Positions 23,451 through 51,427 of a stretch of 64,000 nucleotides of DNA are shown here, in pieces. Below the pieces are notes generated by a model, which saw only the letters and a list, made by a program, of their open reading frames with translations, was not told where the DNA came from and ran no database searches. The stretch is from Deltaproteobacteria bacterium RIFCSPHIGHO2_02_FULL_40_28 (lineage in GTDB: Bacteria; UBA10199; 2-12-FULL-40-28): NCBI GenBank assembly GCA_001798135.1, contig MGRJ01000031.1, positions 57,589-121,588 on the forward strand, in the 5' to 3' direction. Position 1 is the first letter of the stretch. Every line of letters starts with the position of its first letter. Position numbers and translations under genes: made by a program.

Positions 23451-23572
23451 TCAATTAAAAACAAATTGACTATACCAAGCAAAATGCCCGCTTTATCCAG
23501 ATTCTTCAAGGATAAAGCGGGATTGCCTTATGTAGCGGGGCCAGGATTTGAACCTGGGACCTTCGGGTTATG

Positions 23573-24233: not shown

Positions 24234-24325
24234 AGCCCGACGAGCTACCTGGCTGCTCTACCCCGCAGTCGTGGGTGGTGTATAAGGTTTTGAACTCGGT
24301 GTGTCAAGAAGGGAGTCGGGGCTTT

Positions 24326-24583
24326 TTACAAGAGCCCTTTGGCAATGTATTGCTTCATCAAGGTTTGATAAGGAATATGGAGTTCGTTGGCTTGTTCTTT
24401 AAGCCTTAAAAGCAAGTAACTAGGCAAACGAATAGAAATAGCATGAGAAGTTGGTTTCAAGTTTGGAAAAGAAACCGAGCTAAAATCGGATGAACTAAAA
24501 TATTCTGTTAAATCAATTTGAGACCAATGCTTGAGTTCTTGTTTTTTACTTTTAAATTGGGGTAATTTAATTTTCTTCTTCAT
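24326..24583 (-). CDS. brnA: BrnA antitoxin
   Basis: ISIRLPSYLLLRLKEQANELHIPYQTLMKQYI. Confidence 0.7.
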   Translation of the reverse strand: MKKKIKLPQFKSKKQELKHWSQIDLTEYFSSSDFSSVSFPNLKPTSHAISIRLPSYLLLRLKEQANELHIPYQTLMKQYIAKGLL

Positions 24584-24863
24584 AAAGACAAACCTCCTTT
24601 TTATTCAAATCACGTGCTGAAATCACACGTATTTTTGGGCCACTGATCGTAAAAACAATGAAAAGCCTTCTTTCCTTTTTTGTTTTACCAAGAAGCAAAC
24701 ATCGCTCTTCTTGGCCAGAATGGATGACATCATTTAAAATCTTTTTTTTGTGATCAAAAAAAACTTCCTCACATTCCTCATTGGTTACCTTATGCTTCAG
24801 GGTATTTTTTTCTTTATTCCCTTGATCCCATTCAAAAATGAGTGGTTCTTTAAGAACAATCAT
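24567..24863 (-). CDS. brnT: BrnT toxin (DUF497 ribonuclease)
   Basis: FEWDQGNKEKNTLKH...IRVISARDLNKKE closely matches the BrnT consensus; it overlaps brnA. Confidence 0.75.
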   Translation of the reverse strand: MIVLKEPLIFEWDQGNKEKNTLKHKVTNEECEEVFFDHKKKILNDVIHSGQEERCLLLGKTKKERRLFIVFTISGPKIRVISARDLNKKEVCLYEEEN

Positions 24864-24913
24864 GTATATACTGTATTATACATATTTTTTAAGAATGGTC
24901 AATATTAATAATT

Positions 24914-25204
24914 CTAGTTTTCTTTTTTAACCAAATAAAAAGTTTCACGATAGATATTCATTCGGGGACCAATAGCAATAATATCAAGAGTTTTATTACC
25001 CGATACCCGGTAGATAATTCTGAATTTTCCAACACGAAAACTCCATAAGCCTTCCAATTCTTCCTTCAACGCCTTACCAATTGTGGGGTTTTCAAGAATC
25101 ATTTCCAATGCAGCTCTTATTTTTCTTTTAATATCAGGATGGAGTTTTTGGATTAAATTCCTTACTGCATGAGGAAGATTGAGTTTGTATTTGTTTAAAA
25201 CCAC
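24914..25204 (-). CDS. RelE/ParE-family type II toxin
   Basis: 96 aa, ...LWSFRVGKFRIIYRV..NKTLDIIAIGPR, typical of RelE/ParE. Confidence 0.65.
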   Translation of the reverse strand: MVLNKYKLNLPHAVRNLIQKLHPDIKRKIRAALEMILENPTIGKALKEELEGLWSFRVGKFRIIYRVSGNKTLDIIAIGPRMNIYRETFYLVKKEN

Positions 25205-25211
25205 TGAGGGA

Positions 25212-25475
25212 TTATTTTAAGAAAATTTCATCAAGAGTATACAGTTTTGATTTTTTCTTTTTAAGAGCTGCCAAACCCGCCTTGATTTCCTTCATCATGG
25301 AGACATCTGAACGAATTTCCAGGGTTTCTTGCCAACTTTCGTATTCATCTGGATTAACAAGAACTGCAGCTGGCCTTCCATTTTTTGTGATAACAACAAC
25401 ATTATCGGTTTTTTTAACTGAATCAACTAAACCACTTAATTTCATTTTGGCTTCCGATAAAGATAATGTTTTCAT
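25212..25475 (-). CDS. Phd/YefM-family antitoxin
   Basis: MKTLSLSEAKMKLSGLVDSV...VVITKNGRPAAVLV, upstream of the RelE-like gene. Confidence 0.65.
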   Translation of the reverse strand: MKTLSLSEAKMKLSGLVDSVKKTDNVVVITKNGRPAAVLVNPDEYESWQETLEIRSDVSMMKEIKAGLAALKKKKSKLYTLDEIFLK

Positions 25476-26300: not shown

Positions 26301-27443
26301 ATGGGTAAAATAATCAGATATCTTTCTAAGCCGGTTACCAGGGATTTACGCAAAAAAATGGTTTTCATTTCAGGGCCCAGGCAAGTGGGTAAAACCACAT
26401 TTGCCCTTTCCTTTCTTAAGGGGACACAAGCCGGGCATCTGGCTTATCTTAGTTGGGATAATGTCCATGATCGGGACAAAATTAAAACAGCTGAACTTCC
26501 TAGCAAACAACCTGTTGTTATTTTTGATGAGGTTCATAAATTTGCCCGCTGGCGTAGCCTTGTTAAGGGACTTTATGATAAATACCATAACTCAACTCGA
26601 TTTATTGTTACTGGCTCGGCCAGACTTGATTACTTTAGTAAAGGGGGTGATTCCCTTTTTGGACGATATTATCATTATCGACTCCACCCCTTTTCCCTTG
26701 CAGAAATTTCAAAAAATCCAACTCTTGATCATGCCTTTCATTTACTCCAGTTTGGAGGCTTCCCTGAGCCCTATCTTTCTGCTTCTGAAATTACTCTCAA
26801 AAGGTGGCAAAAGGAGAGAAAACAAAAAATCATCTATGATGACTTGCGAGATCTTACGTTGGTTAAAGAAACCTCTCTTCTCGATCTTTTGGTTGATGCC
26901 TTGCCTGCAAGAATTGGATCGCCATTATCGATCAAAAATTTAGCTGAAGATCTTCAAGTAAATCATAAAACCATGGAGCGATGGCTATCGATTTTAGAGC
27001 GTCTTTATATCAGTTTTCGTATTGCCCCTTTTGGATCTCCAAAAATCAGGGCTGTTAAAAAAGAACAAAAGCTTTATCTTTGGGACTGGTCAGCTTGTGA
27101 AAATGAAGGAGCACGGTTTGAAAATATGGTTGCCTGCCAGCTTCTAAAATATTGCCATTTTCAAGAAGATGTTTTTGGTGATTCCATGGAACTGCGCTAT
27201 TTACGAGATACCGATAAACGAGAAGTTGATTTTGTTGTTCTAAAAAATAAAAAAGCAGTTTTTGCTGTTGAATGCCGATTAAGCGATACAAACCTTAGCC
27301 CTCATATCCACTATTTTTCTGCCCGAACAGATATTCCAAAATTTTATCAGGTTCATTTGAAAGAAAAAGATTTTGGAAATGAAACTACAATTGGACGCAG
27401 CCTTCCTTTAACTCATTTTGTCAAAGAACTAGGATTACCATAG
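26301..27443 (+). CDS. AAA-family ATPase with DUF4143 (paralog of 1595-2722)
   Basis: Walker A VFISGPRQVGKTT and conserved blocks (GSARLDY, YRLHPFS, QFGGFPEPYL, ERLYISFRIAPFGS) shared with the other copy. Confidence 0.7.
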   Translation: MGKIIRYLSKPVTRDLRKKMVFISGPRQVGKTTFALSFLKGTQAGHLAYLSWDNVHDRDKIKTAELPSKQPVVIFDEVHKFARWRSLVKGLYDKYHNSTRFIVTGSARLDYFSKGGDSLFGRYYHYRLHPFSLAEISKNPTLDHAFHLLQFGGFPEPYLSASEITLKRWQKERKQKIIYDDLRDLTLVKETSLLDLLVDALPARIGSPLSIKNLAEDLQVNHKTMERWLSILERLYISFRIAPFGSPKIRAVKKEQKLYLWDWSACENEGARFENMVACQLLKYCHFQEDVFGDSMELRYLRDTDKREVDFVVLKNKKAVFAVECRLSDTNLSPHIHYFSARTDIPKFYQVHLKEKDFGNETTIGRSLPLTHFVKELGLP

Positions 27444-28379: not shown

Positions 28380-28576
28380 AAAATTATTGAAATTGAAAAT
28401 CATTTTCAAAATCATTTATGAAGTACGTTTTAGGGGATGGGGTAAAAATAGTCAAGGATAAATTAACCCCCGGGAAAAATAAAAAGGGCCGCCATTTCTG
28501 GCGACCCTTTACTCTACCACCCCAATGGTAGAGAGTTCGGCTTACTACCCTCCGAGCCGACTTAGTTTTGGAAAAC

Positions 28577-29749
28577 TTATGCCTCGGGTTCTACTGTCCC
28601 TTCTCCTACAATCTCATCATAATTCCACGCTAAATAACCCACGGAACCAATTAAAAAAACAGCCCCTACAATATCACCAAAGGGCAAAACTGGACTATCA
28701 GCCATGGCCATTCCACCTGATACAAGAGCTCTTCCTGCTAACCATCTCAGTGCCACTGCTGTACCAGTTACAGCTACTATTGGTACTGCATTGTCTGCAA
28801 CTACTTCGGACGTTGTTGTTAAAACTTGTCTGGCTGTTTCGACGGCCGTTGTAATTGGCACAACAAGATTAACTGGTTCAAACTTAACTACATTGGGAGC
28901 GGATGGGCCACCACTAGGACCATTACCCACACGATTACCACCAGGCGCAACTGGAGGAGCACCAGGAGGAGGTCTTGGTCCACCACGAAATAAATGTTTT
29001 ATTCTTTCTGAAATGGCTGGATAAATATCAACAAAAACTGCTGCAGCAGCAAAGATTGCAAGAGTTGCTAATGCATACTCTTTTGCTGTATCACTAAACA
29101 CTTTGGATTCAACCACCCCTAAAGCCTCATCAATTTTTTCGATATCTCCCTTGGGAATGGCATTCACTCTTCCTTTTAAATTAACATCATCACTTCCTTC
29201 ATTTCCAAAATCTTTATGAATGCGTTTAATTTCATCAATGATGGCACGAAATTCTTCTACATCTTCGGGTTTGGTAAAATCAAAGGGGGTTTGAAGATCC
29301 ATCACGCCTGTAGGATTTACTGTTACTCCATTTTCGAGAGGGAGACTCCACTGATTATCATAGGCATAACGTTCCCCTGGTTCTACACTCACAGCAGCCC
29401 TTGCTACTCTTTCACTCATGGGCCAAACTTGATTGGGGCGAACAGATGTTGCAGCGGGATCTTGTTCAGAACTTGTTAAATCTGTAAAAATAGAACGACG
29501 AATCACAGCAGGACCGGTTTCACTTAAACGACAAGCCTGATCTGTGGGTTGAATATATCCACCTATTCTTAATTGACCGTCGGAAGGCGCATTAACGTTA
29601 AAAACTTCGGGTAAAAATTCGGGATTAATGTCTGTTCTAGAAGCAAGGCCTCGTTCAGTTAAAAAATAAAGAGTGTCGTCTTTTCCCCAGGTTTTATCGA
29701 GAGATTCGGGTGTGATTCCGATAGTTGCACAAAGTGATAATTCAGCCAT
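28577..29749 (-). CDS. Hypothetical protein with a Pro/Gly-rich linker and two C-terminal transmembrane helices
   Basis: 390 aa. GPRPPPGAPPVAPGGNRVGNGPSGGPS linker. Hydrophobic C-terminal segments. GC-richer than surrounding housekeeping DNA, on the same strand as the 1228-aa gene. Confidence 0.4.
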   Translation of the reverse strand: MAELSLCATIGITPESLDKTWGKDDTLYFLTERGLASRTDINPEFLPEVFNVNAPSDGQLRIGGYIQPTDQACRLSETGPAVIRRSIFTDLTSSEQDPAATSVRPNQVWPMSERVARAAVSVEPGERYAYDNQWSLPLENGVTVNPTGVMDLQTPFDFTKPEDVEEFRAIIDEIKRIHKDFGNEGSDDVNLKGRVNAIPKGDIEKIDEALGVVESKVFSDTAKEYALATLAIFAAAAVFVDIYPAISERIKHLFRGGPRPPPGAPPVAPGGNRVGNGPSGGPSAPNVVKFEPVNLVVPITTAVETARQVLTTTSEVVADNAVPIVAVTGTAVALRWLAGRALVSGGMAMADSPVLPFGDIVGAVFLIGSVGYLAWNYDEIVGEGTVEPEA

Positions 29750-29848
29750 TGTTACCTTCCTCGGGTTTTTTTCTGTACTTTCGCCCCTCTTAGGAAGTTA
29801 TCGGCAGAAAAAAAGAAAAGTTGTGGGAAAATAAAAAGAGATGAACTT

Positions 29849-30124
29849 TTAACGATCTAAAAACCGACCCAGAGCCAGCTTAATTAAGGCCTGATAGGGC
29901 ACATCTTGTTGGCTCGCCTTGGCTTTAATTTGATTTAAAAGCCTTGTTGGCAAACGAATAGAAACCACTTGAGTAGGAGGAATTGGGGGAAGCATAAAAC
30001 CAAGATCATCTAGTTTCTTTTTTTGAGAAAGGTTGATCCATGCCGTTGTATCATGGCTGTCATAATCGGTAATTTCTTTTTTTCTAGCTCTTTTCATAAA
30101 CTCTTCTTTCTTTTTTTGACGCAT
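29849..30124 (-). CDS. brnA: BrnA antitoxin
   Basis: VVSIRLPTRLLNQIKAKASQQDVPYQALIKLAL. Confidence 0.7.
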   Translation of the reverse strand: MRQKKKEEFMKRARKKEITDYDSHDTTAWINLSQKKKLDDLGFMLPPIPPTQVVSIRLPTRLLNQIKAKASQQDVPYQALIKLALGRFLDR

Positions 30125-30368
30125 TGCGTGCTGTAATCACTCTTATTTTTCCAGAACGTACCGTAAAACCAACCATCAAAATCCTTCCTTCCATACTCTT
30201 AGCGTACATAATAAACCTTTTTTCGGAAGGAGTAGAATGCATTTGATCATCAAAAATCATTAAATGGGAATCATAAAAACAACTTTCTGCCTCCAAAATT
30301 GAAACCCCATGCTTGGCTTCATTTTTTTGGATATTCCACTGATCCCAATCAAACTTAATTATACGCAT
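30084..30368 (-). CDS. brnT: BrnT toxin
   Basis: IKFDWDQWNIQKNEAKHGVS..EAESCF...IRVITARNASKKERRVYE. Confidence 0.75.
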   Translation of the reverse strand: MRIIKFDWDQWNIQKNEAKHGVSILEAESCFYDSHLMIFDDQMHSTPSEKRFIMYAKSMEGRILMVGFTVRSGKIRVITARNASKKERRVYEKS

Positions 30369-30454
30369 AGATTAAAAAAATACAAGGCCTTTCTTGTAAT
30401 GTCAAGCACTACAAAGTTAGGAGGCAGAAAAAAATAAAAGTTGTGGGAAAATAT

Positions 30455-33400
30455 TTAAAGACGAGCATGACGTGCTGCATCACGCATGGCTTCAGATCCA
30501 CTGCGGCGACGTCTGGCTTCTTCTTCAACACGGCGGGCATGCTCTGCAGTCACTGTAGCTCTTTCAATTACAGCTACCCGTGAGGCTCTAACCCCTCTTT
30601 CGAAACCATCAACTAAACGCGCATAATCGGCAGGTTGAACAGTAACAGCTTCTTCGGCTTGGGCTTGGCCGCAAATCATATCAAATAAAGCTTGTTCGGA
30701 AGTTAAGTTGTAACTAGACATGCGGGCTTCTACTTCTCTGGCAACACCTTCATCCATTCTTTCGAGGAGCTGTGCAATACTACTTGTGGCTCTTCCTTCA
30801 CTTAAATCATCACGGAAATAATTGGCTAATACTGGATCTACAGTATTTAAGGCTTGATACACTTCAGCAGTACGCACCGTATCAAATATCATGGCCTCCA
30901 TCGGAGTGGGTACAAAAGTTGAGACTGGAGCTGGAGGAGGAACTGCTGTTGCTGCAGGCACACTTGAACGCAAACCACCGCCCAATGTTTTCCCTAAACC
31001 AGAACCTAAAGTAGACCTTCCCCCTAAGGTAGGGGCGGAGCGAACCACGCCCGCTGGGCGTGGGGCCTCTGGGGCAGCCATGCCAGAGGCAGGCGCAGCT
31101 GGTCTACCCGCTGCATCGGCTGCTGGAGGCCTGGGAAGCTCACGTCCCATGCGATCGTAAGTTTGACGAACCACTTCGGCTTGAGTGATTACTTGATCCC
31201 ATCTTCCTTCTTCTACAGGCATGCCTAGGGCATTGGCAGAAGTTGAACCCACGCTTCTCGCTCTTTGAACAAGAGCTTGAAGACTTCCACGAATACGACG
31301 CAAGCGCGCTACACGCTCGGCTCTAGTTTCTCCGGGCTGAAGATCGTAGGCCCTGTAATTTCTGCGTAAATCTTCCTCAATAAATCCTTCATTGTGAAGC
31401 ACAGTATGGTGGGCTTCAATTTCACCAATCAAGTCGTAGGCAATGGCATCACTTTGTAAATTATTTAAAATAGTGCGGGCAATACCGTCAGTTACAACAA
31501 CCGTAATCCTTCCATCTGCAGCCTCTGTATACCAATCACGAGGGAGTTCTTGCATCTCATAGAGATAATGAATGTAAGACACAACAGATTTAGCTACTGT
31601 AGTTACACGATCAATGGGTGAACCAGGTAAGGCACTTGAAGAACGCACAATACCTTCCAATACAGCATTGGAGGGAGAGACAACAGTTAGGTTTCTAATA
31701 GCACTTGTTGGCACCCAGCTAGGAGCACCCAAATTACTCACAGGAGCTGGTGGGTTTCCTAACCAACGTGGACGGGCTCTCCAAATAGTGCGACCTGCAG
31801 TATAAAATGTAGTACCCGTATCTATCGTCCACCTATAAGTTCCCACTGTCCAATCGATGGGATGGCGTAAGGGATATAAAGTTCCACTCCTTACATTCCA
31901 ATCTACTTTTCGTACCCACCATGGCCTTGCATCAGGAAAAACAGGTTGCACTCTGGCAGTTCTAACAGCTGAATCGCTGGTCCCATCAATGGCCCGTCTA
32001 GCTGCATTAATCAATTGCGGCATGCCTAAGCGCCCTAAACGGATGGGCTCTAAACGACGAGAAAGCTGACCCGCATCGGCTTCGTCAGTAGCAATTTTAT
32101 TGTAATCGGCATTGGTCATGGTGCAAGAACCTGTTACACGACCATCACCAATATAGGGTTTTAATTGATCCACCACCTTGCGCTGGGGAGATTTATCTCT
32201 CATGCTACTTACAGAGGCTGCATCTCCAATTTCTTCAAAGTTAACTCGAACAATATTGCTTCTCGTCCGTTCGGCTTCCAGCAAGTCAACCAAACGCATA
32301 GCTCTCTCTTCGGGCTCACCCACGTATTTGGCATCACGAATCAAAGTGGCAATTTGAACGCTGATGTAACTATTGTAAGCCAAAGATTCGGGGCATAAAC
32401 TCCAAATGTATCCTCTGGCTTCTACCTGGGTCTGGGTTAATCTTTGGTTTAGCCCCAAGCTTCCTTGCTCTCGCAAATCGCGCTCTAATTCCATGATACG
32501 ACGCCTAAGCCACATGTGACGTGCAATTTCTTTTACCATGACTGTTTTACCCGAACCACCCTCACCAACAAAAGCAGCAAAGGATTTACCATCGGTACGT
32601 TCCCAAATCATGAAGGTTTGGCGCACTTCATTTTCGCGCCCTTCCAACGGAATCCGTGTTTCTACATCCTTAAAGGGATCTTCACCCCATTGTTTCACAA
32701 AATCATCCAAAGACATTTTTGCCAGTTGAGCCCTTCTGGCCTTTTTAACAGCCTCTTCTTTGGCCGCCTCAAGTCCCGCGCCAATGGCTGTTCTTAAAAT
32801 CATTGTTAACACAATAGCACCCACAACATGTGAAAGGGATAGGGCCCCAATAAGCTGCATTACCTCGCTCGCTCCCATGGATAAACCATGCGCCTGTAAT
32901 TCAGTTGGAGTTAATGAATCCACCCCTTGTTCTTCAGCATATTTTTGAAACTTAAAATAAAGTTCTCGCCTACGGCTAGGATCCATATCGTTTAAAACTT
33001 CATAGGCGGCTGCTAGCATAGGGTCTGCATTAGCGGGCAAAGCTTGTGGTGGATCACTACGAAGCATAAAAATTGCATCTCTAATTCCCTTCAACATGGC
33101 AGGTAAAGTGTTGGGATCAATTTTAAAACGCAGCGTTTTAGCCCCTGTTGTATCCATCTCTTGCACACAACCATCATAGGCCATAGGGTTAATATTGTAG
33201 ATGGCAAAAAGATCATTTACCTCATTAATTTCATGAGGATTAAAAGCAAAATCAAGGGTGTAGTAACCCTTTGCAGAATCAGCTAGGGAGCTACAAGCAT
33301 CTTCAATTTTAGGGATGGCTAAAATAGTGGCATTAAAAGGAACGGCTTCCTCTACAGGCTGTCCATTAGCACCCATGACAGATGTTTTAATATCAATAAA

Positions 33401-34141
33401 TCTTCTCTTAAAATCCTCTAATTGATAAGATCCATAAGCCCCTGTTTGAGAGGTAATAAAAGCTTTTACTGCAGCTTCTTCTGCAGGCGTTCCGGGAATA
33501 TGCTGACCAGCTGGTACTGTATACAAACCTAAATTATCAAGAGTAACCGCCTGAGCCGTTATATTTCCTGTAGCATCATTAATAAGTAAAATTGAAAGTT
33601 TGTAGGTTTCGGCCATTCGAGGAATATTAACACTCGCAAAAATTTGGCCGGCAGCCCCTTCGGCATCAGCCTTGCTAAAATAAAAAGAATCTTGGATAGT
33701 ATCTAAATTTCCATCTCTATCAGCATAATAAACCTGATGGGTTTGAATGGCGTCAGGATTGGAAGGATCTTTTAAAAAACCATTCCTATCAAGCATTCCT
33801 ACCCCACTTAAAAAAGCTCTTTGGCCAGGAGATAAAATCTGGGCAACCGCTTTATTTTGTCTTGATAGCTGCCTGACGGCAGCTAATCGGGTTTGAGGAA
33901 TAAAAACTTGATTTTCGTAATTGGAAGGATTGTTATCGGCATCAATCACAACACCCGGGATTATTTTTTCGTTCTCTAATTGCTCACTCATAAAACGAGT
34001 GGCATGATCGTTTAAAAGATCAACTTTAAATTCTTGGAAAGCAGTAGGAGTGATGGTAAAATCTGTTCCTTCTGTTAAACCATCCAAAAGGCCACAGTTA
34101 CGAAAACGTGCAAGATCGCCATGAATTATGGAAGTTACCAT
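30455..34141 (-). CDS. Large (1228 aa) P-loop NTPase-domain protein of unknown function with Pro/Ala-rich low-complexity regions
   Basis: Walker A FVGEGGSGKTVMV near the middle. About 480 N-terminal residues are unrecognised. A hydrophobic stretch (LIGALSLSHVVGAIVLTMILRTAIGAGL) is present. Local GC is noticeably higher than the flanks. Confidence 0.45.
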   Translation of the reverse strand: MVTSIIHGDLARFRNCGLLDGLTEGTDFTITPTAFQEFKVDLLNDHATRFMSEQLENEKIIPGVVIDADNNPSNYENQVFIPQTRLAAVRQLSRQNKAVAQILSPGQRAFLSGVGMLDRNGFLKDPSNPDAIQTHQVYYADRDGNLDTIQDSFYFSKADAEGAAGQIFASVNIPRMAETYKLSILLINDATGNITAQAVTLDNLGLYTVPAGQHIPGTPAEEAAVKAFITSQTGAYGSYQLEDFKRRFIDIKTSVMGANGQPVEEAVPFNATILAIPKIEDACSSLADSAKGYYTLDFAFNPHEINEVNDLFAIYNINPMAYDGCVQEMDTTGAKTLRFKIDPNTLPAMLKGIRDAIFMLRSDPPQALPANADPMLAAAYEVLNDMDPSRRRELYFKFQKYAEEQGVDSLTPTELQAHGLSMGASEVMQLIGALSLSHVVGAIVLTMILRTAIGAGLEAAKEEAVKKARRAQLAKMSLDDFVKQWGEDPFKDVETRIPLEGRENEVRQTFMIWERTDGKSFAAFVGEGGSGKTVMVKEIARHMWLRRRIMELERDLREQGSLGLNQRLTQTQVEARGYIWSLCPESLAYNSYISVQIATLIRDAKYVGEPEERAMRLVDLLEAERTRSNIVRVNFEEIGDAASVSSMRDKSPQRKVVDQLKPYIGDGRVTGSCTMTNADYNKIATDEADAGQLSRRLEPIRLGRLGMPQLINAARRAIDGTSDSAVRTARVQPVFPDARPWWVRKVDWNVRSGTLYPLRHPIDWTVGTYRWTIDTGTTFYTAGRTIWRARPRWLGNPPAPVSNLGAPSWVPTSAIRNLTVVSPSNAVLEGIVRSSSALPGSPIDRVTTVAKSVVSYIHYLYEMQELPRDWYTEAADGRITVVVTDGIARTILNNLQSDAIAYDLIGEIEAHHTVLHNEGFIEEDLRRNYRAYDLQPGETRAERVARLRRIRGSLQALVQRARSVGSTSANALGMPVEEGRWDQVITQAEVVRQTYDRMGRELPRPPAADAAGRPAAPASGMAAPEAPRPAGVVRSAPTLGGRSTLGSGLGKTLGGGLRSSVPAATAVPPPAPVSTFVPTPMEAMIFDTVRTAEVYQALNTVDPVLANYFRDDLSEGRATSSIAQLLERMDEGVAREVEARMSSYNLTSEQALFDMICGQAQAEEAVTVQPADYARLVDGFERGVRASRVAVIERATVTAEHARRVEEEARRRRSGSEAMRDAARHARL

Positions 34142-34408
34142 CCCAAAACCCTCTCATGCCCCCTAAAAAATTCTCTAAAAAATTTAAAAGTTCTGTCATT
34201 CTGAATCCGCCAAAGGCGGATGAAGAATCTCAATGCAATCAATGAGATCCTTCGTCGCCCTTTTCAGGGCTCCTCAGGATGACATTTTAAAAAATTACGC
34301 CTAAAAAACTTCTGCATTGAAGTTATCGGCAGAAAAAAAGGAAAGTTGTGGGAATTAAAAAAACATGATGCGGTGTGTTAAATGTGTGGGGGCGGGGTCA
34401 TCCCGCCC

Positions 34409-35275
34409 CTACATTATTAATTTCATTAAACTTAACACCTGCAAATCAACCTCGTATTTTCCTTGATGATGCAAAGCCAAACCCAAAAGATGATCTTGGC
34501 TTGGACGTAAAATTTGAAATTGAAATTCATCTGATTTGTAAGGAGGGGTTTTGGGGGATTTTTCCCAAATTTCTGGATTTAAGCGAACAGTAATATCACC
34601 ATTTGGTTTCAACGAAAAAACAGCATGAGCAAAAGTATAAAGCACAGGAATACCTGAAGCTTTGGTAAGAGATTCTTTGAGAACAGCGTACTGATAAAAA
34701 CGAAACATGCGATCTTCCCCTTTGCGGGATTCTACATCTTTTACTTCCTCCTCGGGCCCACCCACCATGGCCAAGCGACCCTCATCAACACGGGGTTCTT
34801 TGAGATATTCTACGTCAATGCCATGGGACACATCACCTAGGGAACAAACAACCATTTTTTTGGTGTGACTCAGGCTAACAATAGAAGATGGATCCCCGCC
34901 TTCGCGGGAATGACGAATATGTTTTTCATCCCCATCCGTAGGGGCAAACCCATGTGTTTGCCCGTTTAATGGGGTGACACATGGGTCACCCCCTACATTT
35001 AAGAGAGAAGTGTCATCCCCGCGAAGGCGGGGATCCATCTTCATTCTTGGACGCTTTCCTTCTTCCATTTCCAAATCCGGTGAAATTTTGACGCGCGCTA
35101 GGGCATGAGAGGCAAGGTATTGAGCACGAAATCCAGGATGAGTTGCTTCGTCAAAACGTTTTTGTTCAGAGGGAATTAAAGCTTCGTACAAAAACTTTTT
35201 TTCTTTTTCAGAAAAATGGTCAATGGATTCAGGAATGGGAAGCGACCAGATGGTAATTTTTTTGGTTTCATTCAT
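34409..35275 (-). CDS. Sfp/AcpT-type 4'-phosphopantetheinyl transferase with an in-frame repeat-derived insertion
   Basis: PPTase motifs HGIDVEY (G-x-D) and VLKESLTKASG (W/F-x-x-KE-S/A-x-x-K). The segment MKMDPRLRGDDTSLLNVGGDPCVTPLNGQTHGFAPTDGDEKHIRHSREGGDPSS is encoded by REP-A and family C elements at 34888-35040. Confidence 0.7.
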   Translation of the reverse strand: MNETKKITIWSLPIPESIDHFSEKEKKFLYEALIPSEQKRFDEATHPGFRAQYLASHALARVKISPDLEMEEGKRPRMKMDPRLRGDDTSLLNVGGDPCVTPLNGQTHGFAPTDGDEKHIRHSREGGDPSSIVSLSHTKKMVVCSLGDVSHGIDVEYLKEPRVDEGRLAMVGGPEEEVKDVESRKGEDRMFRFYQYAVLKESLTKASGIPVLYTFAHAVFSLKPNGDITVRLNPEIWEKSPKTPPYKSDEFQFQILRPSQDHLLGLALHHQGKYEVDLQVLSLMKLIM

Positions 35276-35407: not shown

Positions 35408-38400
35408 TTATCCCGCGGCCTTTAAGGCTGCTGCAACCACTGGAGATGCACTTCCTCGTCTCATGGCACCTGCTCGTGTTGCCATTGCTTCCATACGAGC
35501 ACTAGGACCGGCATGTTCTATCACACCTACATCTTCTAGCACTTGATCGACAGCACTTGCAGGGTCTTCGGCATCCAAGGCCATAGCTAATTGCTGCCAA
35601 TGAATATTTTCTAAACCAAGCCCTTCCATTTCATCACGGCCATAACCATGTTCTTCCAAACGAGCAAGAAGGGTTGCGCGATCCATCTCTCCAGTAGGGG
35701 CGTGATTTATCACGCCCTGTTCAGAGGGCGCAATAAATTGCGCCCCTACATGAGAGACACCTTGAACCAAGCCACTACGCAAACCAGCAACATCTGCTAA
35801 GCTAACAAGTTCTCCAGTTGCTCTAGCCGCTACTTCTCCAGGTGCAGATGGAGAACCTGGATCGCCACGTCGCTCTTCGGGCTCCTCGCGATGACCAGGG
35901 CTCGGGCCATCTCCACCATCAGGGCCACTATCTCTTCCGGGCTCTGGAGGAGGTGGAGCTTCGCGTCCATGGATTAAACGTTCAAACGTACTCTCTAATT
36001 CTTCACCCACACGTACTGTCCCCACATTTTGTGAAGCCAAGAAAATACCACCTTGCCTTCGCGTAGCATCATTAGCAGACTGGGCATTGGCAAAGGCATT
36101 AGTGACAGCTGTTCTCATCAAAGGCTTTGCAATGGCCTCTGTTAAAGTTTTATCTTTAATTTTCTCACGATAGAATTTTAATTGAGTGTCTAATTTTAAA
36201 GCTCCTGGAGTATCCATTAAACGAAGTTTGCGGCCTTCGGCATCTTCAATCACACGAACAGCTACGGAACTACCTAAAGATGGATCCCCGCCTTCGCGGG
36301 GATGACTGAGGGTAAGGGGATCACTCAGAATAGTTTTTCCACCATACTGACTTTCTTTTGAATAAAGAATGGCATCATCCAAGGCTACACCGCTAGCGCC
36401 CCAATGAAATGCGCCTTTTACATCTTCGTGGGTGGTATAGGCACCCGAAGCAATGACTGGAATTTTTGCATCATACAAAGCTTCACGAGCTTTTCGAACA
36501 ATCAGTTCGGGATCGGCATTCATGTCGCGATTTTGTTCAACGGCTTGAAGAATTTTATTAAAATTATGCCCCAAAGCTTTTTTAACAAAAGCAAAGGTGG
36601 CTCTAATTTCTGGATCCTCGGGATGGGCACGCAAGTTTTCGATAGCTCGCGCCAATACGTTTTGAGCTGCCTTCATTTGAGGAACATAACGAGCCGTTAA
36701 AACACCAATGGCCTGTCCGTCTTCACCAAAGAAGGTAACTTTCATGCGCATATCACTCGTTAAGCCATCCCACTCTGGAACCTCAGCCACTAAGGTAATT
36801 GCTTCATTGGCTTCCGGTGCACGCAAAGGAGTGTACAAATTATCTGCAGTGAATCCCCAAATTTTAAAAGCCATCATGCCTGTCCAGCCTGTTAATTCAT
36901 CAGCAGCCAGCATCATGGAATGATAACGGCTTTGACCTTCAATGGGTGTTACCCTTCCCCAAAGAGCTTTTTTTCCATCATCATAATTAAATCTAAAATG
37001 TAAGCCCGTGCCATGCTCATGCCCGGCTGCTACACAATTAGGTAAACATCCAAATTGAGCATTACTTGCAAGTTCGGCTGGATTAATTGTGCTGGCTTTA
37101 TCTTTGCTTTTAACTTTGGAAGCATCTTGGAAAGTAGCATTGGAAAGAGTTTTTTCTTCACGAGTGGCAGGCTTACCTCCTTCGGCTGGCTTATCAACAA
37201 GCTCCATCATTCTCATTTCAATGCGACCATCTGGTTTTTTCTCTACATAAATTCGAACATTGGCATTGGAAGGCGCATTCGCAATATAGCCCACGTTTCG
37301 ATGCAATTTATTAATATCAACTCTTTCGCCACCCTTCACCATGGCTTCTAAAACAGATTCAAAAATGGAATCAAGCATGCCTCCATGGGTGATACCCGTG
37401 TATCCCGCATAAGTTTCTGGAAGTTTAAAATCGACTTCGGATTTATTGGAGTAAAGTCTAAAAGAAGGAAAATCCGTTGTTTTGAATTGTAAATTAATGG
37501 GGCGAAGGGGCACAGTAGGCATCACATCCCACCTAGGATCTCTTAAGTCAGATAAATCACCAAATTTATTTTCTCCGGCCTGGTTTATATTTCCAGAAGA
37601 AATACTTCTCTCAACCACCACAGCATCAAACTTAGCCTTGGTAGTTTTTTGATTAGGTTTACCTTCGTGTTCAACCACCTTCATTTCAGTGAGTTTAATA
37701 ACCTCGGCTGCTGTATCCACCGTTTGAAAAACAGCAATGCCTACTTTATTTAAAGCAATGACTTGTTCTGTCTTAGGCAATCCCCCTCTAAACATCACGC
37801 CGCGCACTTGCTTTTCTGCAACCACTTTAAGTTGGGCTTCAAAGTTAGAGGCAGAAACATCTAAACTCACCACAAGAGGCGCTGTATTACCTACAGCGGC
37901 ATACACAGCATCAATTCTGGCCTCTAGGGTATCAGGGACCCCATTAACACCATTACCACCTTCAGTTGCTGCTTTTCTTGCAGCTCTTTCTCGTAAAACT
38001 TTTTCTGCTGCTGTTTCAGTGGCTTTTAAATTTCCTGCATCCAGGGTTCCAATGCCACCGGCATCAATAACAGCAATGGCCAAACTAGGTGTATTGACCT
38101 CTGGTGAAAAGCCACGTTGAAGCACAGGATAAGAAACACCCTTAAAGGCCTCGGGCATGGGCAACTGGGCTATCCCCTCTGCGTCATGTTTAATGCCTCT
38201 CTCTAAGGTTCTTTTTTCTTTGATGTCACCAATATGCTCAAAAGTATATTTGAGATAATCACCAGGTAAAATATCCGTCAGTAAAAGGGCCGTGTCTTCA
38301 CGAGACATTTTGCCTTCAAACTCCCTGATATCTTTACCGTTGGCCACCCAGGCTGCTTTTTCAGCTCCTAGTCTTGCTTCTAAACGAGCTTGAACTTCTT

Positions 38401-41400
38401 GAATTCTTCTGGCCACCTCGGGATAAACAGACACTTCGTGCTTATCTACAAAAACATAAATATTTTGATCATAGAGACCCCTTTCAAACTCACCTTTTAG
38501 AGCTCCCAAGAGAGCACGCACAGAAAGTTCATTCATAGATACAAATTTTGTTACCGCAGGATCAACTCCTGGTAAGACAAGAGCTCCACTTTGAATATCT
38601 TCAAAAATGCGTTTTTCAATCAAGCCCGCCAAGGTTCCACCAGGAATTGCATGTAATGCAAAAGATAAAAAAGCAGGAAAACTTAAAACACGACGTAAAC
38701 CTGTTTTAGGATCAGAAAGCCTGGGGCTTGCCAATTCTTTTTTGGTGGTCATCTTGGCGCGACCCAGAGAACCCTTGGTTTCCCAGGTAGCCCCGCCGTA
38801 CACTCCACCCAACATTCCATCCGATTCAGAACCACGCCAATCAAACCAAAAAGTTTCTGAAGCTCCAAAATGTTTGCCCCTGGCTCCTTTTAACCAACCT
38901 TGTTCATTGAATAAATCAAGCAAACGGGGATGGCTTCTGCCCATGGGAATAATGGTTGCTATTTCTTCTTCTTTTTCAGAGGCAAAATTAGGAATTTTTT
39001 TCATTTCTAATTCGCCATAGGAATTCATGCTAGGAACAGAAAGTTCGGGCTGGTAATGCGCCCTAGCAGGCAAGCCAAAGGCTACAGAGTCAAAGAAGTT
39101 TACCCCCGGGAGTAGATTTTGTTTAATCAAAGCATCAACAGTTAAACCTTTAATGTTATCCCATTGAAGCTCGGTGTCAAATTCTGTATTAACAGCGGCA
39201 AGCCAGCCCCTAGGGTCTGTAAATCCCAGTTCTTCTAACTTGGTTGTACCTTTCACCAGCACAGGGCGATTTAAAATACGAGAAGCTTTTCTAGTTAACC
39301 ATCCACGAATTTCAGCAACGGTAGGCTCAAAAGCTTTTCCAACAGCTTCAACCACTTCTTTGGGAAGAGGAGTTGGAGTACCGGTTGCTGCCGGGTGGCC
39401 CACATCAAAGGGTACGGCATTTACATTAAGCAATTGTAAGTTAACTCCATGAGTCTCCGCCAAGGCCTTCAAAACAGCAGGATTAAAGGCAGAAGCTTTT
39501 TCAACAAGTTCTTCGGGTTTAGCGGGATCAACGGGATTTGGATCACGATGCACACCCACTACTTCTTTAACCGCTCCTGATTTAATCAGCGCGATTAAGG
39601 TGCGCATACCCATGCCATCAGACATGCCGTAAAACACCATGGGACGACGATGCCAGTTTTTTTGACGAGCCAGGTGGCCCATTTCGTTTACTTCTCTTTG
39701 TCCAATGGAGTCATAAATTTCTTTTACACGGGCTTGGGCCTCGGCATATTTAATGGCATTGTGCTGAGAGCGAATAATTTCTGCATTGGCGCGTTTGTTA
39801 GTGGCGCTAGCTTGATCTGCTGTAACTTCCAAGCGTTTTACCTTCTTGTTTTCGAAATCAACCGTATACACTCTGGGGTTTACAAAATTATTCTGGGCTA
39901 AATCGGTATCCACTTCCAGCTCTACACCCTCATTTAAGGGGAATTGGTAAACCCAACTTTCGATATTGTTCCAATCCAGTTTTCTGCCTTCCAAAACAAG
40001 TGCACGAGCAATGGCATGGGAACGCAAGGTTACTTCATATTGATCACGATAGAGAGAAACGGGGGTTTCTTGATAAGTAGCCCGATTAAAAAACATTTTA
40101 CGCAAGCCCTGACGTTCGGCTCTTTTTTGAACTCTTTCTTTCGCTACTCCCTCAATGAGTTTAGCCACATAATCCACTGCAGATTCTTCGGTCTCAAAAC
40201 CCAGTTTTCCCATCACTTCAATGATGGCTGTATTTTTAGCATTAAAACCAGCAGCCTCACGAAGCACCACCCATGTTACATCGTCATCGTAGAGATCCCT
40301 TAAATTCTCGGCATGCTTATGGTGGTAAACAGTCACATTTTCTCCACCCTGTGCATGAATATTATCCAAACCAGGATCACCCGGAATACCCAAGAAACGC
40401 ATCACAAGTGGAGATAAAGCTGAATCGGAACCGGAAGAACCACCCAAGAGATGTCCCATATGGGCCTTGGTTTTAACAATGTGGGCAAACTGGGTGGGAT
40501 CTAAAATGGAAGAAAGGAAAAGACGTATGGATTCTTCCTCGTATAAATCTCCCATGGGCGTAGAAGTCTTGTGCGCCATTACAACCAGGCGTACATTTTC
40601 TTTAAGCTTACGGGTATTATCCACAAGAAAATCCACCAAATTTTTTCCCGTACGACCTTCTCCAACAGCTTTATTCCATTCTTCTTCAGTCAGTTTGGGG
40701 CCAAAACGTTCGACTAACTTATTGTAGAGAGCTTTTTGTTCGGTAAGTTTTAAACCCCACGTACTGATGGCTGTATCGGCATTAAATTCTGCTTTTGCAC
40801 GCCCTGCAGCACGCTTCCCCCTTTGAACTGCAACCATTAATTCTTGTACAATACCCGTCATTTCCTCTGGGGTATGCAACACTTCAGTTAATTTTTCTTT
40901 GGCTTGATCCCAGGCATCAAAAAGAGCCGAGCGTTGACCAATACCGTAACCTTCTCTGGCTCCCTTGTAGGCTTGTTTATCTCCATCGGTGCGGCTTTCT
41001 GCCCCTGCAATCATGGAGTAAACAGGATCTCCTGTTTTGATGGCATTAGAAAGTGGGGTAATCCCCTGACCACCACCACCCGCACCCAACACAAAACCAA
41101 AGCGTTCCATATCATCGGGACGGGAAGCCATTTTAATGGCAATATCGCGACCACGACGAACAGAATCTCTTATTGTGGCTCCAATGGCATCAAAACCAAA
41201 AATGGCGTTGAAGGTAATGGCGTAATCAACTCCACCGGCAATCCAAATTTTTGCAAAAACTTCATCCCAGTTAACATCCATTCCACTTTCTTCTCTGCGT
41301 GTTGCAGCCCAATACTCACTAAACAAATGTTTCACAGCCATCACAATGTTCATGTTTCCTGTAGAACAAGCAGCTACAACGGCTAGCGCCATCCCTTCAG

Positions 41401-51139: not shown

Positions 51140-51427
51140 GGACCCAATTTAAAGCAATACCCCCTCGCTGCTTCACAGCAAGGCCTTCCAGACAAAACTC
51201 GAAAGATGAATAGTGATTCCTCTGCCCCAGGTGGACGGGAATGATGATTACTGACTTAAGACCCCAACACTCTAAAAACTGAATGGACGTTCAGCGTCCT
51301 TAGCGTAGCTGAAAATTCATTTCAAGAAAAAAATCAAATCTTTATCTGCCTCTTACAACCAAAGGTTGCTTCCTTTTTTTCCGTCATCCCTGCCTCTTTT
51401 GTCATCCCTGCGAAGGCAGGGATCCAT

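What the first reader, a model, noticed from the sequence alone, without database searches (positions are those of the whole stretch)
28577..34141. GC-richer two-gene module (1228-aa P-loop protein plus 390-aa membrane protein) split by a BrnTA pair; candidate horizontally acquired system of unknown function
The 1228-aa ORF has a central Walker A (GEGGSGKT) and about 480 N-terminal residues with no recognisable motif. It also has a hydrophobic helix and extensive Pro/Ala-rich low complexity. The co-oriented 390-aa ORF has a Pro/Gly linker and two C-terminal TM helices. Codon and GC usage is visibly different from neighbouring AT-rich genes. Family D, A and C repeats flank the module at 34206-34408. 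Large orphan NTPases with a membrane partner next to TA genes are a recurring signature of defence or conflict systems, though nothing here matches a named one.
Basis: inference. Interest (0 to 1): 0.55.

Follow-up and report, generated by a model that had tools for sequence, protein, structure and literature searches.

The report
Membrane-anchored Clp-like ATPase, FliA-type promoter
The two orphan genes are native to this uncultured groundwater bacterium, not an imported defence system: the large one is a rare membrane-anchored relative of the Clp/Hsp100 protein-unfolding ATPases, and both genes sit behind copies of a conserved flagellar-type (sigma-28) promoter, with a toxin-antitoxin pair inserted between them.

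Summary
The ORFs, Walker A, hydrophobic helices, Pro/Ala linkers and BrnTA pair are all real. The interpretation mostly fails. The extra GC lies in codon positions 1 and 2 (Ala/Gly/Pro/Arg-rich proteins). GC3 (0.32 and 0.23) is within the neighbours' range (0.26-0.44) or just below it, so nothing indicates foreign origin. No PADLOC model matches either protein.

The 1228-aa protein carries a Clp/Hsp100 D1-type AAA+ module (hhalign 99.3 %, E 1e-20). Walker A/B and the arginine fingers are kept in every member; the pore-loop Tyr is kept in all but one. There is one hydrophobic helix and no second ring.

The family is tiny: five proteins among about 15 billion, all from groundwater 'Deltaproteobacteria' MAGs.

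Every member with upstream DNA carries the same element, TTTTCCCRC..CAACWTTT-N10-GCCGATAAC. Its -10 box matches the sigma-28/FliA consensus exactly. In the window, intact copies precede the 1228-aa and the 390-aa genes. A decayed third copy and the intact one bracket BrnTA, marking it as a secondary insertion.

Two of three informative loci place the gene directly after a Sfp-type PPTase, here at the end of an ACC-FAS megasynthase string.

Best reading: a native, sigma-28-programmed, membrane-tethered unfoldase with a membrane partner. The substrate is unknown.

The parts
30455..34141 (-). Gene for the 1228-aa protein. Layout: N-domain (aa 1-425), one hydrophobic helix, basic linker, Clp D1-like AAA+ module, Trp/Arg-rich insert, D1 small-subdomain-like region with a PDR motif, Pro/Ala linker, helical C-domain.
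   Evidence: ORF. 100 % identical to A3G32_01925, with an 84 %-identical homolog P0002. dN/dS 0.14. Family alignment.
32798..32854 (-). Hydrophobic helix aa 430-448 (LIGALSLSHVVGAIVLTMI), followed by the basic stretch KKARRAQLAK. Presumed membrane anchor.
   Evidence: KD 2.13 over 19 aa, the only peak in the protein. A hydrophobic segment at the same place in P0004, P0005 and P0006.
31997..32653 (-). Clp/Hsp100 D1-type AAA+ large subdomain, aa 497-715. Walker A GEGGSGKT (nt 32543-32566), a ~38-aa insert after the Walker A helix (aa 543-582), pore loop KYVGEPE, Walker B VNFEEIGD, arginine pair SRRL.
   Evidence: TIGR02639 ClpA E 1.5e-7. PDB ClpB NBD1. Profile A2 against ClpC proteins E 1e-20. 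hhalign probability 99.3 %. Motif census.
31742..31939 (-). Trp/Arg-rich insertion, aa 735-800, with a YP[LI]RHP motif. Present in P0001, P0002 and P0004, absent in P0005 and P0006.
   Evidence: Alignment. Highest dN/dS of the folded parts, 0.31.
30902..31138 (-). Pro/Ala/Gly-rich variable linker, aa 1002-1080. This is the main source of the GC peak.
   Evidence: GC 0.577 for aa 1001-1100. Poorly conserved against P0002.
34319..34362 (-). Promoter-like element copy 1 (TTAATTCCCACAACTTTCCTTTTTTTCT-GCCGATAA-CTTC), 181 nt upstream of the 1228-aa start codon.
   Evidence: The -10 box equals the sigma-28 consensus GCCGATAA (PMC2859248).
34195..34283 (-). MITE-like repeat inserted between promoter copy 1 and the start codon. 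Part of it is also present upstream of P0002 in L001.
30414..30457 (-). Promoter-like element copy 2, decayed at the -10 box (GCCTCCTAA). It overlaps the stop codon of the 1228-aa gene and forms the left bracket of the BrnTA insertion.
30377..30405 (-). Sigma-70-type promoter of brnT (TTGACA-17-TATTTT). It is the best sigma-70 match in the 7.3-kb region.
30084..30368 (-). BrnT toxin gene (94 aa).
   Evidence: PF04365 E 2.2e-22. 42 % identical to a second BrnT at 24567..24863.
29849..30124 (-). BrnA/CopG-type antitoxin gene (91 aa), overlapping brnT by 41 nt.
   Evidence: PF12441 E 1.5e-12 and NF047399.
29794..29837 (-). Promoter-like element copy 3, intact (…CCCACAACTTTTCTTTTTTTCT-GCCGATAA-CTTC), 48 nt upstream of the 390-aa start codon. 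It forms the right bracket of the BrnTA insertion.
28577..29749 (-). Gene for the 390-aa orphan protein: acidic 220-aa N-domain, hydrophobic helix 228-246, Pro/Gly linker, two further hydrophobic segments.
   Evidence: No homolog other than itself among 5.8e9 clusters. Strong codon-position GC periodicity, GC1 0.59 against GC3 0.23.
28483..28510 (-). Intrinsic-terminator-like hairpin plus T-run that closes the unit.
34409..35275 (-). Context: Sfp-type 4'-phosphopantetheinyl transferase, directly upstream. It is the one neighbour that recurs next to a distant family member.
   Evidence: PF01648. L006 has an ACPS gene directly upstream of P0005.

Best explanation
This is a native, lineage-restricted gene pair, not an imported island.

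The 1228-aa protein is a single-ring, membrane-tethered member of the Clp/Hsp100 AAA+ lineage. It has a D1-type ATPase module with intact Walker A, a Walker B (EE), a pore-loop tyrosine and a paired arginine finger. This module follows one hydrophobic anchor helix and a large acidic N-domain of unknown fold.

By analogy with Hsp100 D1 rings, it most likely forms a hexamer that uses ATP to thread or remodel polypeptides at the cytoplasmic face of the membrane. The 390-aa three-helix membrane protein would be its partner or adaptor.

Both genes are driven separately by copies of one conserved bipartite promoter whose -10 box is the sigma-28 (FliA) consensus. They would therefore be switched on together with the motility, dispersal or late programme of the cell.

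The BrnTA cassette, with its own sigma-70 promoter, was inserted later into the intergenic promoter region and duplicated 44 nt of it.

Shown: gene reality, Clp D1 homology and motif conservation, promoter-element conservation in three diverged genomes, non-elevated GC3, and the repeats bracketing BrnTA.

Inferred: hexamer formation and threading, membrane insertion, actual use by a sigma-28 holoenzyme, partnership of the two proteins, and the substrate, which is unknown.
For: AAA+ identity:
- ClpA TIGR02639 E 1.5e-7 and ClpB NBD1 in PDB.
- The family profile hits ClpC proteins at E 1e-20 in a 5.8e9-protein space.
- hhalign against a ClpC alignment gives 99.3 % probability, E 1.4e-20, over the D1 large subdomain.
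- Walker A, Walker B [DE]E and the RR pair are conserved in all five members. The pore-loop Tyr is conserved in four of five.
- There is a single P-loop and no HExxH motif.

Real, constrained gene: dN/dS 0.14 overall and 0.09 in the AAA+ part.

Native origin:
- GC3 is 0.321 and 0.228 against 0.26-0.44 for neighbours, so it is not elevated.
- Housekeeping genes surround the region.

Promoter:
- The 27-nt core occurs three times in the window against 0 expected.
- The same element lies 7-10 nt before the start codon of P0005 (L006) and P0006 (L008). Their proteins are only 23-29 % identical to the window protein, and the spacer sequence differs while the spacing is kept.
- The consensus TAAAGTTT-n11-GCCGATAA comes from PMC2859248.
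- FliA-type promoters run whole non-flagellar programmes in Bdellovibrio. There, the genes they drive are also slightly GC-richer, but not at wobble positions (PMC3627812).

BrnTA as an insertion: it has its own TTGACA-17-TATTTT promoter and direct repeats on both sides.

Weak link between the two proteins: the 390-aa C-terminus resembles the C-terminal hydrophobic extension of P0005 (score 67 against 39 +/- 6 for shuffles, reached by 1 of 300).
Against: - No transcription data exist, and no fliA, flgM or flagellar gene was seen in the ~90 kb of this genome I could read.
- The -35 half matches the E. coli consensus at only 5 of 8 positions. It fits the Bdellovibrio TTAAG poorly.
- Topology is awkward. 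A single helix would put a 425-aa N-domain with no signal peptide outside the cell.
- P0005 has Leu in place of the pore-loop Tyr.
- The sensor-1 position is variable.
- The AlphaFold models were too poor to confirm the fold: pLDDT 59 and 39. Foldseek put ClpB on top, but only at E 0.03.
- The 390-aa protein has no ortholog in the other loci, so the partnership rests on the shared promoter, the adjacency and one weak similarity.
Confidence: 0.5

Rival explanations
1. The protein is an accessory factor of the neighbouring megasynthase. The AAA+ protein, with its partner, would assemble, quality-control or tether to the membrane the giant ACC (2791 aa) and fungal-type FAS-I (5243 aa) whose operon ends with the PPTase just upstream.
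For: - The gene order is ACC, FAS, PPTase, then the 1228-aa gene, all on one strand.
- The distant homolog P0005 also lies directly after a Sfp-type PPTase (26 % identical to the window's).
- P0006 follows a PDH E1 gene, that is, acetyl-CoA supply.
- Unfoldase-type chaperones suit multi-MDa assemblies (inference).
Against: - The AAA+ gene has its own conserved promoter between it and the PPTase in both loci, so it need not be co-transcribed.
- The truncated ORF upstream in L006 shows no significant similarity to the window FAS.
- In L008 the upstream gene is not a PPTase.
- A tRNA-Met gene with its intron is also shared by the window and L006. The adjacency may therefore be residual synteny rather than functional coupling.
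- No carrier-protein or lipid-related domain was detected in either protein.
Confidence: 0.15
2. The proteins are exported effectors. They lack signal peptides and have moderately hydrophobic helices. They could be exported during a sigma-28 (attack or motile) phase, through a flagellar-type or other secretion route, and then insert into a foreign (prey or host) membrane where the ATPase acts.
For: - This would resolve the topology paradox.
- The promoter is of the sigma-28 type.
- In Bdellovibrio, FliA promoters drive most attack-phase genes, including many uncharacterised proteins (PMC3627812).
- The proteins are orphan and fast-evolving, with variable N-domains.
Against: - There is no evidence that the organism is predatory, host-associated or even flagellated. 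Its taxonomy is unresolved.
- No secretion-system genes lie nearby.
- dN/dS of 0.14 is ordinary purifying selection, not an arms-race signature.
Confidence: 0.1
3. This is the first reader's view: a horizontally acquired defence or conflict system built from an orphan NTPase and a membrane effector, associated with TA genes.
For: - A large NTPase plus a membrane protein is a common defence layout (established knowledge).
- TA pairs and a PADLOC PDC-S01 candidate (26301..27443, E 8e-48) lie within 4 kb downstream.
- The family has a patchy, very rare distribution.
Against: - There is no PADLOC hit for the two proteins or for P0005 and P0006.
- GC3 is not elevated.
- No relatives occur on viral contigs.
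- TA genes are ubiquitous in this genome.
- The conserved neighbours are a PPTase and a tRNA gene, not defence genes.
- A conserved sigma-28-type promoter across diverged orthologs points to vertical, programme-linked regulation.
Confidence: 0.07
4. The two genes are not a functional pair. The 390-aa ORF would be an unrelated lineage-specific orphan that merely received a copy of the promoter when the BrnTA insertion duplicated the region.
For: - The 390-aa protein has no homolog anywhere, and none of the other family loci shows a comparable downstream gene.
- The similarity to the P0005 C-terminus is weak and low-complexity.
Against: - The intact promoter copy is the one in front of the 390-aa gene, and the decayed one is upstream of brnT. 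This is as expected if selection keeps the 390-aa gene under this promoter.
- The two proteins have the same domain logic: acidic N-domain, helix, then a Pro-rich linker.
- A terminator appears only after the 390-aa gene.
Confidence: 0.18

Closest known systems
Clp/Hsp100 unfoldases (ClpA, ClpB, ClpC), first nucleotide-binding domain (D1/NBD1)
   Same: - The 'GRxxE' lead-in, Walker A GxxGxGK[TS] and the CPExL segment (VPExL in ClpB).
- The pore loop KY[RV]GE, Walker B hhh[DE]E, the LKPxLxxG motif and the paired arginines.
- A PDR/PDK-type motif in the small-subdomain position.
- Profile-profile probability 99.3 %.
   Different: - There is one ring only, with no D2.
- No Clp_N domain, no M-domain coiled coil and no recognisable ClpP-docking loop.
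- A ~38-aa insert follows the Walker A helix. It is shared, without gaps, only with an unnamed Clp-like subgroup, P0007-P0009.
- There is a hydrophobic anchor helix, and large unique N- and C-terminal domains.
Membrane-anchored single-ring AAA+ machines (FtsH, Msp1/ATAD1, Bcs1)
   Same: The general layout is shared: an N-terminal membrane anchor followed by one cytoplasmic AAA+ ring that acts on proteins at a membrane. This rests on established knowledge and is a resemblance only.
   Different: - They belong to a different AAA+ clade (classical AAA, not Clp D1).
- This family has no protease domain or HExxH motif.
- Here a 213->690-aa domain precedes the anchor, whereas those proteins have short N-tails or a loop between two helices.
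Sigma-28 (FliA) class-3 promoters, including the FliA-driven attack-phase regulon of Bdellovibrio
   Same: - The -10 box GCCGATAA is identical to the consensus.
- The spacer is 10-11 nt with a T-rich -35 half (CAACTTT against AAAGTTT).
- The target genes are slightly GC-richer without a wobble-position shift, as reported for Bdellovibrio attack-phase genes.
   Different: - The -35 half is only partly matched.
- An extra conserved TTTTCCCRC block lies upstream.
- No sigma-28 gene or flagellar gene has been seen for this organism, and no transcript mapping exists.
fas-acpS arrangement of Corynebacterineae, and the PPT domain fused to fungal FAS
   Same: A type-I FAS gene is followed directly by its phosphopantetheinyl transferase (the arrangement in mycobacteria is established knowledge recalled from memory).
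   Different: - The FAS here is 5243 aa and is preceded by a eukaryote-type single-chain ACC.
- The PPTase is Sfp-type.
- No AAA+ gene is known to follow fas-acpS in actinobacteria.
BrnTA type II toxin-antitoxin
   Same: BrnT_toxin and CopG/BrnA antitoxin domains, overlapping genes and an own promoter.
   Different: Nothing unusual. It is one of many TA pairs in this genome and a passenger in this locus.

Membership tests
Clp/Hsp100 AAA+ family | D1-type AAA+ module with Walker A, Walker B, pore-loop Tyr and arginine fingers | tested here: met
   hhalign 99.3 %, E 1.4e-20. Profile against ClpC E 1e-20. Motifs conserved across the family, except the pore-loop Tyr in P0005.
Clp/Hsp100 AAA+ family | Second AAA+ ring (D2) as in ClpA/B/C, or a ClpX-type single ring with zinc-binding domain | tested here: not met
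   There is only one P-loop per protein. The Clp homology stops at about aa 715. No AAA_2/ClpB_D2 Pfam hit.
Clp/Hsp100 AAA+ family | Clp_N N-terminal domain | tested here: not met
   No Pfam or NCBIfam hit in aa 1-495 of any member.
Clp/Hsp100 AAA+ family | Hexameric ring and ATP-driven substrate threading | not testable with these tools
   The AF2 monomer model was poor (pLDDT 59). No multimer prediction or biochemistry was available.
Anti-phage defence systems (PADLOC-DB v2) | Match of at least one component to a defence-system HMM | tested here: not met
   No hit for the 1228-aa protein, the 390-aa protein, BrnT, BrnA, P0005 or P0006. Only an unrelated neighbour at 26301..27443 matches PDC-S01.
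Horizontally acquired genomic island | Deviant synonymous-site composition relative to the host genome | tested here: not met
   GC3 is 0.321 and 0.228 against 0.26-0.44 for 32 other ORFs, so it is not raised. The excess GC is in codon positions 1 and 2.
Horizontally acquired genomic island | Integrase or transposase and island-specific flanking repeats | tested here: not met
   No such gene in the window neighbourhood. The flanking repeats are a MITE family with 11 dispersed copies plus the promoter repeat.
Sigma-28 (FliA)-dependent promoter | -10 element GCCGATAA | tested here: met
   Exact match in window copies 1 and 3, in L006 and in L008. Consensus from PMC2859248.
Sigma-28 (FliA)-dependent promoter | -35 element TAAAGTTT at an 11-nt spacing | tested here: inconclusive
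   ACAACTTT or GCAACWTT lies at the right distance, matching 4-5 of 8 positions. The spacing is conserved while the spacer sequence varies.
Sigma-28 (FliA)-dependent promoter | A sigma-28 family sigma factor in the genome, and a transcript start just downstream of the -10 | not testable with these tools
   Only about 90 kb of the genome was readable (window, L020, L022), and no RNA data are available.
BrnTA type II toxin-antitoxin | BrnT RNase toxin domain plus RHH/CopG BrnA antitoxin in an overlapping gene pair | tested here: met
   PF04365 E 2.2e-22 and PF12441 E 1.5e-12, with a 41-nt overlap.

The most novel reading that the evidence does not exclude
The family could be a new class of sigma-28-programmed, signal-peptide-less AAA+ effector. 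It would be exported during a motile or attack phase, possibly through a flagellar-type export gate. It would then insert by its single helix into another cell's membrane, where the Clp-like ring uses the target's ATP to unfold or extract proteins. The 390-aa protein would be a co-exported membrane partner. This would explain the otherwise paradoxical topology, the orphan and variable N-domains, and the conserved FliA-type promoter.
Probability: 0.07. Interest if true: 0.8.

Novelty: new variant of a known kind. Interest (0 to 1): 0.4.

Why it matters
If the reading holds, Hsp100-type D1 modules have been recruited into a membrane-anchored, single-ring format. That format was previously known for other AAA+ clades such as FtsH and Msp1.

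It would also show that an uncultured groundwater lineage wires such a machine into a sigma-28 programme, extending the non-flagellar use of FliA seen in Bdellovibrio.

Practically, the conserved 40-nt element is a ready-made probe. It could be used to define a regulon in MAGs that have no cultured relatives.

The result also removes this locus from the list of candidate novel defence systems.

The neighbouring eukaryote-type ACC plus 5243-aa fungal-type FAS in a 'deltaproteobacterium' may be of greater interest than the flagged genes themselves.

Tried and rejected
- **PADLOC, PHROGs, Pfam and NCBIfam on both proteins and on distant homologs.** Nothing turned up beyond weak AAA/Clp hits.
- **PDB sequence search of the 390-aa protein.** Only noise.
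- **AlphaFold2 with the 5-sequence alignments.** The AAA+ half reached pLDDT 59 and the N-domain 39, which is unusable. I therefore ran only one Foldseek search. ClpB was on top but at E 0.03, and the rest was noise.
- **More family members.** I ran an exhaustive phmmer of 1.84e9 representatives, a profile search of 5.8e9 clusters, and pattern scans of genome, metagenome and viral contigs. These yielded only P0002, P0004, P0005 and P0006. The other metagenome loci (L012-L019) and L010 are ordinary Clp genes.
- **Is the truncated ORF upstream in L006 the C-terminus of a FAS?** No significant similarity. No Pfam hit either.
- **Is the 390-aa protein fused to P0005?** This is only weakly suggested.
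- **Carrier-protein (ACP-like) motif in the C-domain.** I considered this by eye and rejected it: there is no conserved DS[LF] serine and no PP-binding hit.
- **Integron-cassette reading of the 44-nt repeat.** Rejected. The repeat is not an imperfect palindrome, and it is conserved upstream of orthologs in other genomes.
- **Taxonomy.** NCBI lists the organism only as unclassified Deltaproteobacteria, and the MAG name occurs in no held paper.
- **Reading beyond the window ends.** This found TA clusters and a lysine-fermentation cluster, but no flagellar or sigma-factor genes.


Full report
**1. What is in the sequence**

The window is a chromosomal stretch of the MAG 'Deltaproteobacteria bacterium RIFCSPLOWO2_12_FULL_40_28'. 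The 1228-aa ORF is 100 % identical to A3G32_01925 and the 390-aa ORF to A3G32_01910. NCBI leaves the organism unclassified.

All the genes below lie on the minus strand, in this order:
- a 2791-aa single-chain, eukaryote-type acetyl-CoA carboxylase (51428..59803);
- a 5243-aa fungal-type FAS-I-like megasynthase (35408..51139);
- a Sfp-type PPTase (34409..35275);
- the 1228-aa ORF (30455..34141);
- brnT (30084..30368);
- brnA (29849..30124);
- the 390-aa ORF (28577..29749);
- a good intrinsic terminator (28483-28510).

- The only P-loop is GEGGSGKT at aa 526.
- There is one strongly hydrophobic helix at aa 430-448, and three hydrophobic segments in the 390-aa protein.
- Pro/Ala/Gly linkers are present.
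- The BrnTA pair is bona fide.

The large ORF is a real, constrained gene. Against an 84 %-identical homolog from another sample (P0002), dN/dS is 0.14 overall, 0.09 in the ATPase part, and 0.14 in both the N- and C-terminal domains.

**2. The GC argument does not hold**

Whole-ORF GC is 0.452 and 0.428 against a window mean of 0.422. The adjacent FAS and ACC genes are both 0.441.

Third-position GC is 0.321 and 0.228. The other 32 ORFs range from 0.26 to 0.44, so GC3 is not raised in either gene.

The excess sits in codon positions 1 and 2. It peaks at 0.577 in the Pro/Ala linker, aa 1001-1100. This is amino-acid composition, not foreign codon usage.

- a GC hairpin;
- a member of a MITE family that has 11 copies scattered over the window, some inside ORFs;
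- a 44-nt element discussed in section 5.

No integrase or other mobility gene lies nearby.

**3. What the large protein is**

Single-sequence searches already point weakly to ClpA/ClpB: TIGR02639 E 1.5e-7, PHROG 'ATP-dependent protease' 1.7e-7, and ClpB NBD1 structures.

An exhaustive phmmer over 1.84 billion cluster representatives found only three true distant relatives:
- P0004, 31 % identity, E 1e-62;
- P0005, E 1.6e-24;
- P0006, E 2.6e-5.

With P0001 and P0002 that makes five proteins in roughly 15 billion. All come from groundwater MAGs or metagenomes; the two that carry a source name (P0004, P0006) are labelled Deltaproteobacteria.

A profile of the five hits ClpC proteins at E 1e-20. 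hhalign against a ClpC alignment gives 99.3 % probability over the D1 large subdomain.

The functional residues line up across the family:
- the GRxxE lead-in and Walker A;
- CPExLA, corresponding to VPExLK of ClpB;
- the pore loop KY[RV]GE, with Leu in P0005;
- Walker B hhh[DE]E[IL]xD;
- LKPxLxDG;
- the paired arginines.
- A 'PG[SA]xPDR' motif sits where ClpB has LPDKAID of the D1 small subdomain. This positional match is my own reading of the alignment.

Differences from Hsp100 proteins:
- a ~38-aa insert follows the Walker A helix, and it aligns without gaps to an unnamed Clp-like subgroup (P0008);
- there is no D2 ring, no Clp_N domain, no M-domain and no protease motif;
- a hydrophobic helix and a basic linker lie immediately N-terminal to the ATPase;
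- a 213->690-aa acidic N-domain matches nothing.

AlphaFold2 with only five sequences gave unusable models (pLDDT 59 and 39). The one Foldseek run put ClpB first, but without significance.

I therefore call the protein a single-ring, apparently membrane-anchored Clp-D1-type AAA+ protein, probably catalytically competent. Hexamer formation and threading are inferred from the family, not shown.

**4. What the small protein is**

The 390-aa protein has no relative at all. Several features suggest it is nonetheless a real gene:
- strong codon-position periodicity, GC1 0.59 against GC3 0.23;
- a GGAAGG ribosome-binding site;
- its own promoter-like element;
- the only strong terminator of the unit.

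Its layout mirrors the large protein: an acidic N-domain, then a helix followed by basic residues, then a Pro/Gly linker, then two more hydrophobic segments.

Its C-terminal 100 residues resemble part of the long Gly/Ala/Val-rich C-terminal extension of P0005. The score is 67 against 39 +/- 6 for shuffles, reached by 1 of 300. That hints at a fusion but is not proof.

**5. The key new observation: a conserved sigma-28-type promoter**

A 44-nt direct repeat occurs three times in the window. Its 27-nt core gives three matches against 0 expected.

Read on the coding strand, it is TTTTCCCACAACTTTTCTTTTTTTCT-GCCGATAA-CTTC. The three copies are:
- 34319-34362, intact, 181 nt before the ATG of the 1228-aa gene, with a MITE inserted in between;
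- 29794-29837, intact, 48 nt before the ATG of the 390-aa gene;
- 30414-30457, right after the 1228-aa stop codon and upstream of brnT, with a decayed -10 box (GCCTCCTAA).

The same element lies 10 nt before the ATG of P0005 in L006 (TTTTCCCACGCAACTTTTCCAAAAATCTGCCGATAACC). It also lies 7 nt before the ATG of P0006 in L008 (TTTTCCCGCAACATTTTCTTTTTTTTGCCGATAAC). Those proteins are only 23-29 % identical to the window protein.

The two conserved blocks keep their spacing while the spacer sequence differs. That is the signature of a bipartite promoter.

GCCGATAA is the exact -10 consensus of sigma-28/FliA promoters, TAAAGTTT-n11-GCCGATAA (PMC2859248). The -35 half matches 4-5 of 8 positions.

Sigma-28-family factors can run non-flagellar programmes. 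In Bdellovibrio, a FliA-type motif precedes two thirds of mapped attack-phase promoters. There, the attack-phase genes are slightly GC-richer, but not at wobble positions (PMC3627812). That is the same compositional pattern seen here.

I could not verify that this organism has a sigma-28 or flagella. None of the ~90 kb I could read encodes them.

**6. BrnTA is a passenger**

- It has the best sigma-70 promoter of the region, TTGACA-17-TATTTT.
- It is bracketed by copies 2 and 3 of the promoter element, which fits an insertion into the original intergenic promoter with a 44-nt duplication.
- It has a 42 %-identical paralog 5 kb away.
- TA pairs are extremely common in this genome, so TA adjacency carries no defence signal.

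**7. Neighbourhood evidence**

In L006 the family member lies directly after a Sfp-type PPTase that is 26 % identical to the window's.

A tRNA-Met(CAT) gene split by a group I intron with a PDDEXK_5 homing endonuclease lies nearby in both loci.

In L008 the upstream gene is a PDH E1.

The truncated ORF upstream in L006 cannot be shown to be a FAS.

A link to the megasynthase therefore remains possible, and I keep it as the main rival. However, the separate promoter and the shared tRNA gene make residual synteny an adequate explanation.

No defence gene is conserved next to the family. PADLOC gives nothing for the proteins themselves. One unrelated neighbour at 26301..27443 matches the candidate PDC-S01. 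No relative occurs on viral contigs.

**8. An unresolved point**

With a single helix, and with the ATPase necessarily in the cytoplasm, the large acidic N-domain would have to be outside the cell. Yet it has no signal peptide, and the 390-aa protein poses the same problem. Three readings are possible:
- export is unconventional;
- the proteins act in a foreign membrane (the 'novel case');
- the helix is not transmembrane.

**9. Verdict**

The interpretation (horizontally acquired, defence) is not supported.

The locus is a native, co-regulated pair headed by a very rare membrane-anchored variant of the Clp/Hsp100 D1 ATPase. It carries a sigma-28-type promoter that is conserved across its few known relatives.

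The function is inferred to be protein remodelling at the membrane in a sigma-28 programme. Confidence is moderate for the architecture and the regulation, and low for the substrate.

Noticed in passing
window 35408..59803 (-): A 2791-aa single-chain acetyl-CoA carboxylase with the eukaryote-type ACC_central domain sits directly upstream of a 5243-aa fungal/CMN-type FAS-I-like megasynthase (FAS1_DH, MaoC, AT, tandem ACP-like repeats, KS, NMO-type ER) and a Sfp-type PPTase. Multidomain ACCs in bacteria were first described only in 2019, in an actinomycete (PMC6491548 abstract). In a 'deltaproteobacterial' MAG this cluster may deserve its own study.
   Followed up: partly
window 34884-35042 (inside PPTase ORF 34409..35275): A 159-nt MITE-like palindromic element is inserted in frame in the PPTase gene, adding about 53 residues (MDPRLRGDD…REGGDPSS) that are absent from the L006 PPTase. 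Its termini (GTCATYCCYGCG…GCRGGRA) occur 11 times in the window against 0 expected. Some lie inside the FAS ORF (36285) and the FtsY ORF (4383). This resembles Rickettsia palindromic elements.
   Followed up: partly
window 23532..24267 (-); L006 7502-8110: A tRNA-Met(CAT) gene is interrupted in the anticodon loop by a 661-nt group I intron. The intron carries a PDDEXK_5 homing-endonuclease ORF (23701..24213). The same intron and endonuclease (74 % aa identity) lie next to the distant homolog in L006.
   Followed up: partly
window 26301..27443 (+) and 1595..2722 (-): Two AAA_14/DUF4143 ATPase paralogs are present. The first matches the PADLOC candidate single-gene defence system PDC-S01 at E 8e-48.
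   Followed up: no
window 24326..25475 (-); L020 11178-20400: TA modules are unusually dense. A second BrnTA and a Phd/ParE pair lie 4 kb downstream. At least eight further TA-like genes (PIN, ParE, Phd, HTH/Gp49, BrnA) lie in the 10 kb beyond the window start.
   Followed up: no
L006 3430-3448 and L008 3285-3300: In the two distant loci the sigma-28-like -10 box ends only 10 and 7 nt before the annotated ATG. This implies leaderless or nearly leaderless mRNAs. In the window the leaders are 48 and 181 nt, the latter enlarged by a MITE.
   Followed up: no
P0007-P0009 (metagenomic Clp-like proteins, no locus): An unnamed subgroup of two-ring Clp-like proteins shares the same-length ~38-aa insertion after the D1 Walker A helix and the 'CP' motif with the family studied here. 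It may mark the D1 lineage from which this family derives.
   Followed up: partly
L022 10001-15916 (just beyond window end): A lysine fermentation gene set (KDD, lysine 2,3-aminomutase, KamDE-type B12 aminomutase, BKACE) lies next to the ACC gene on the opposite strand.
   Followed up: no
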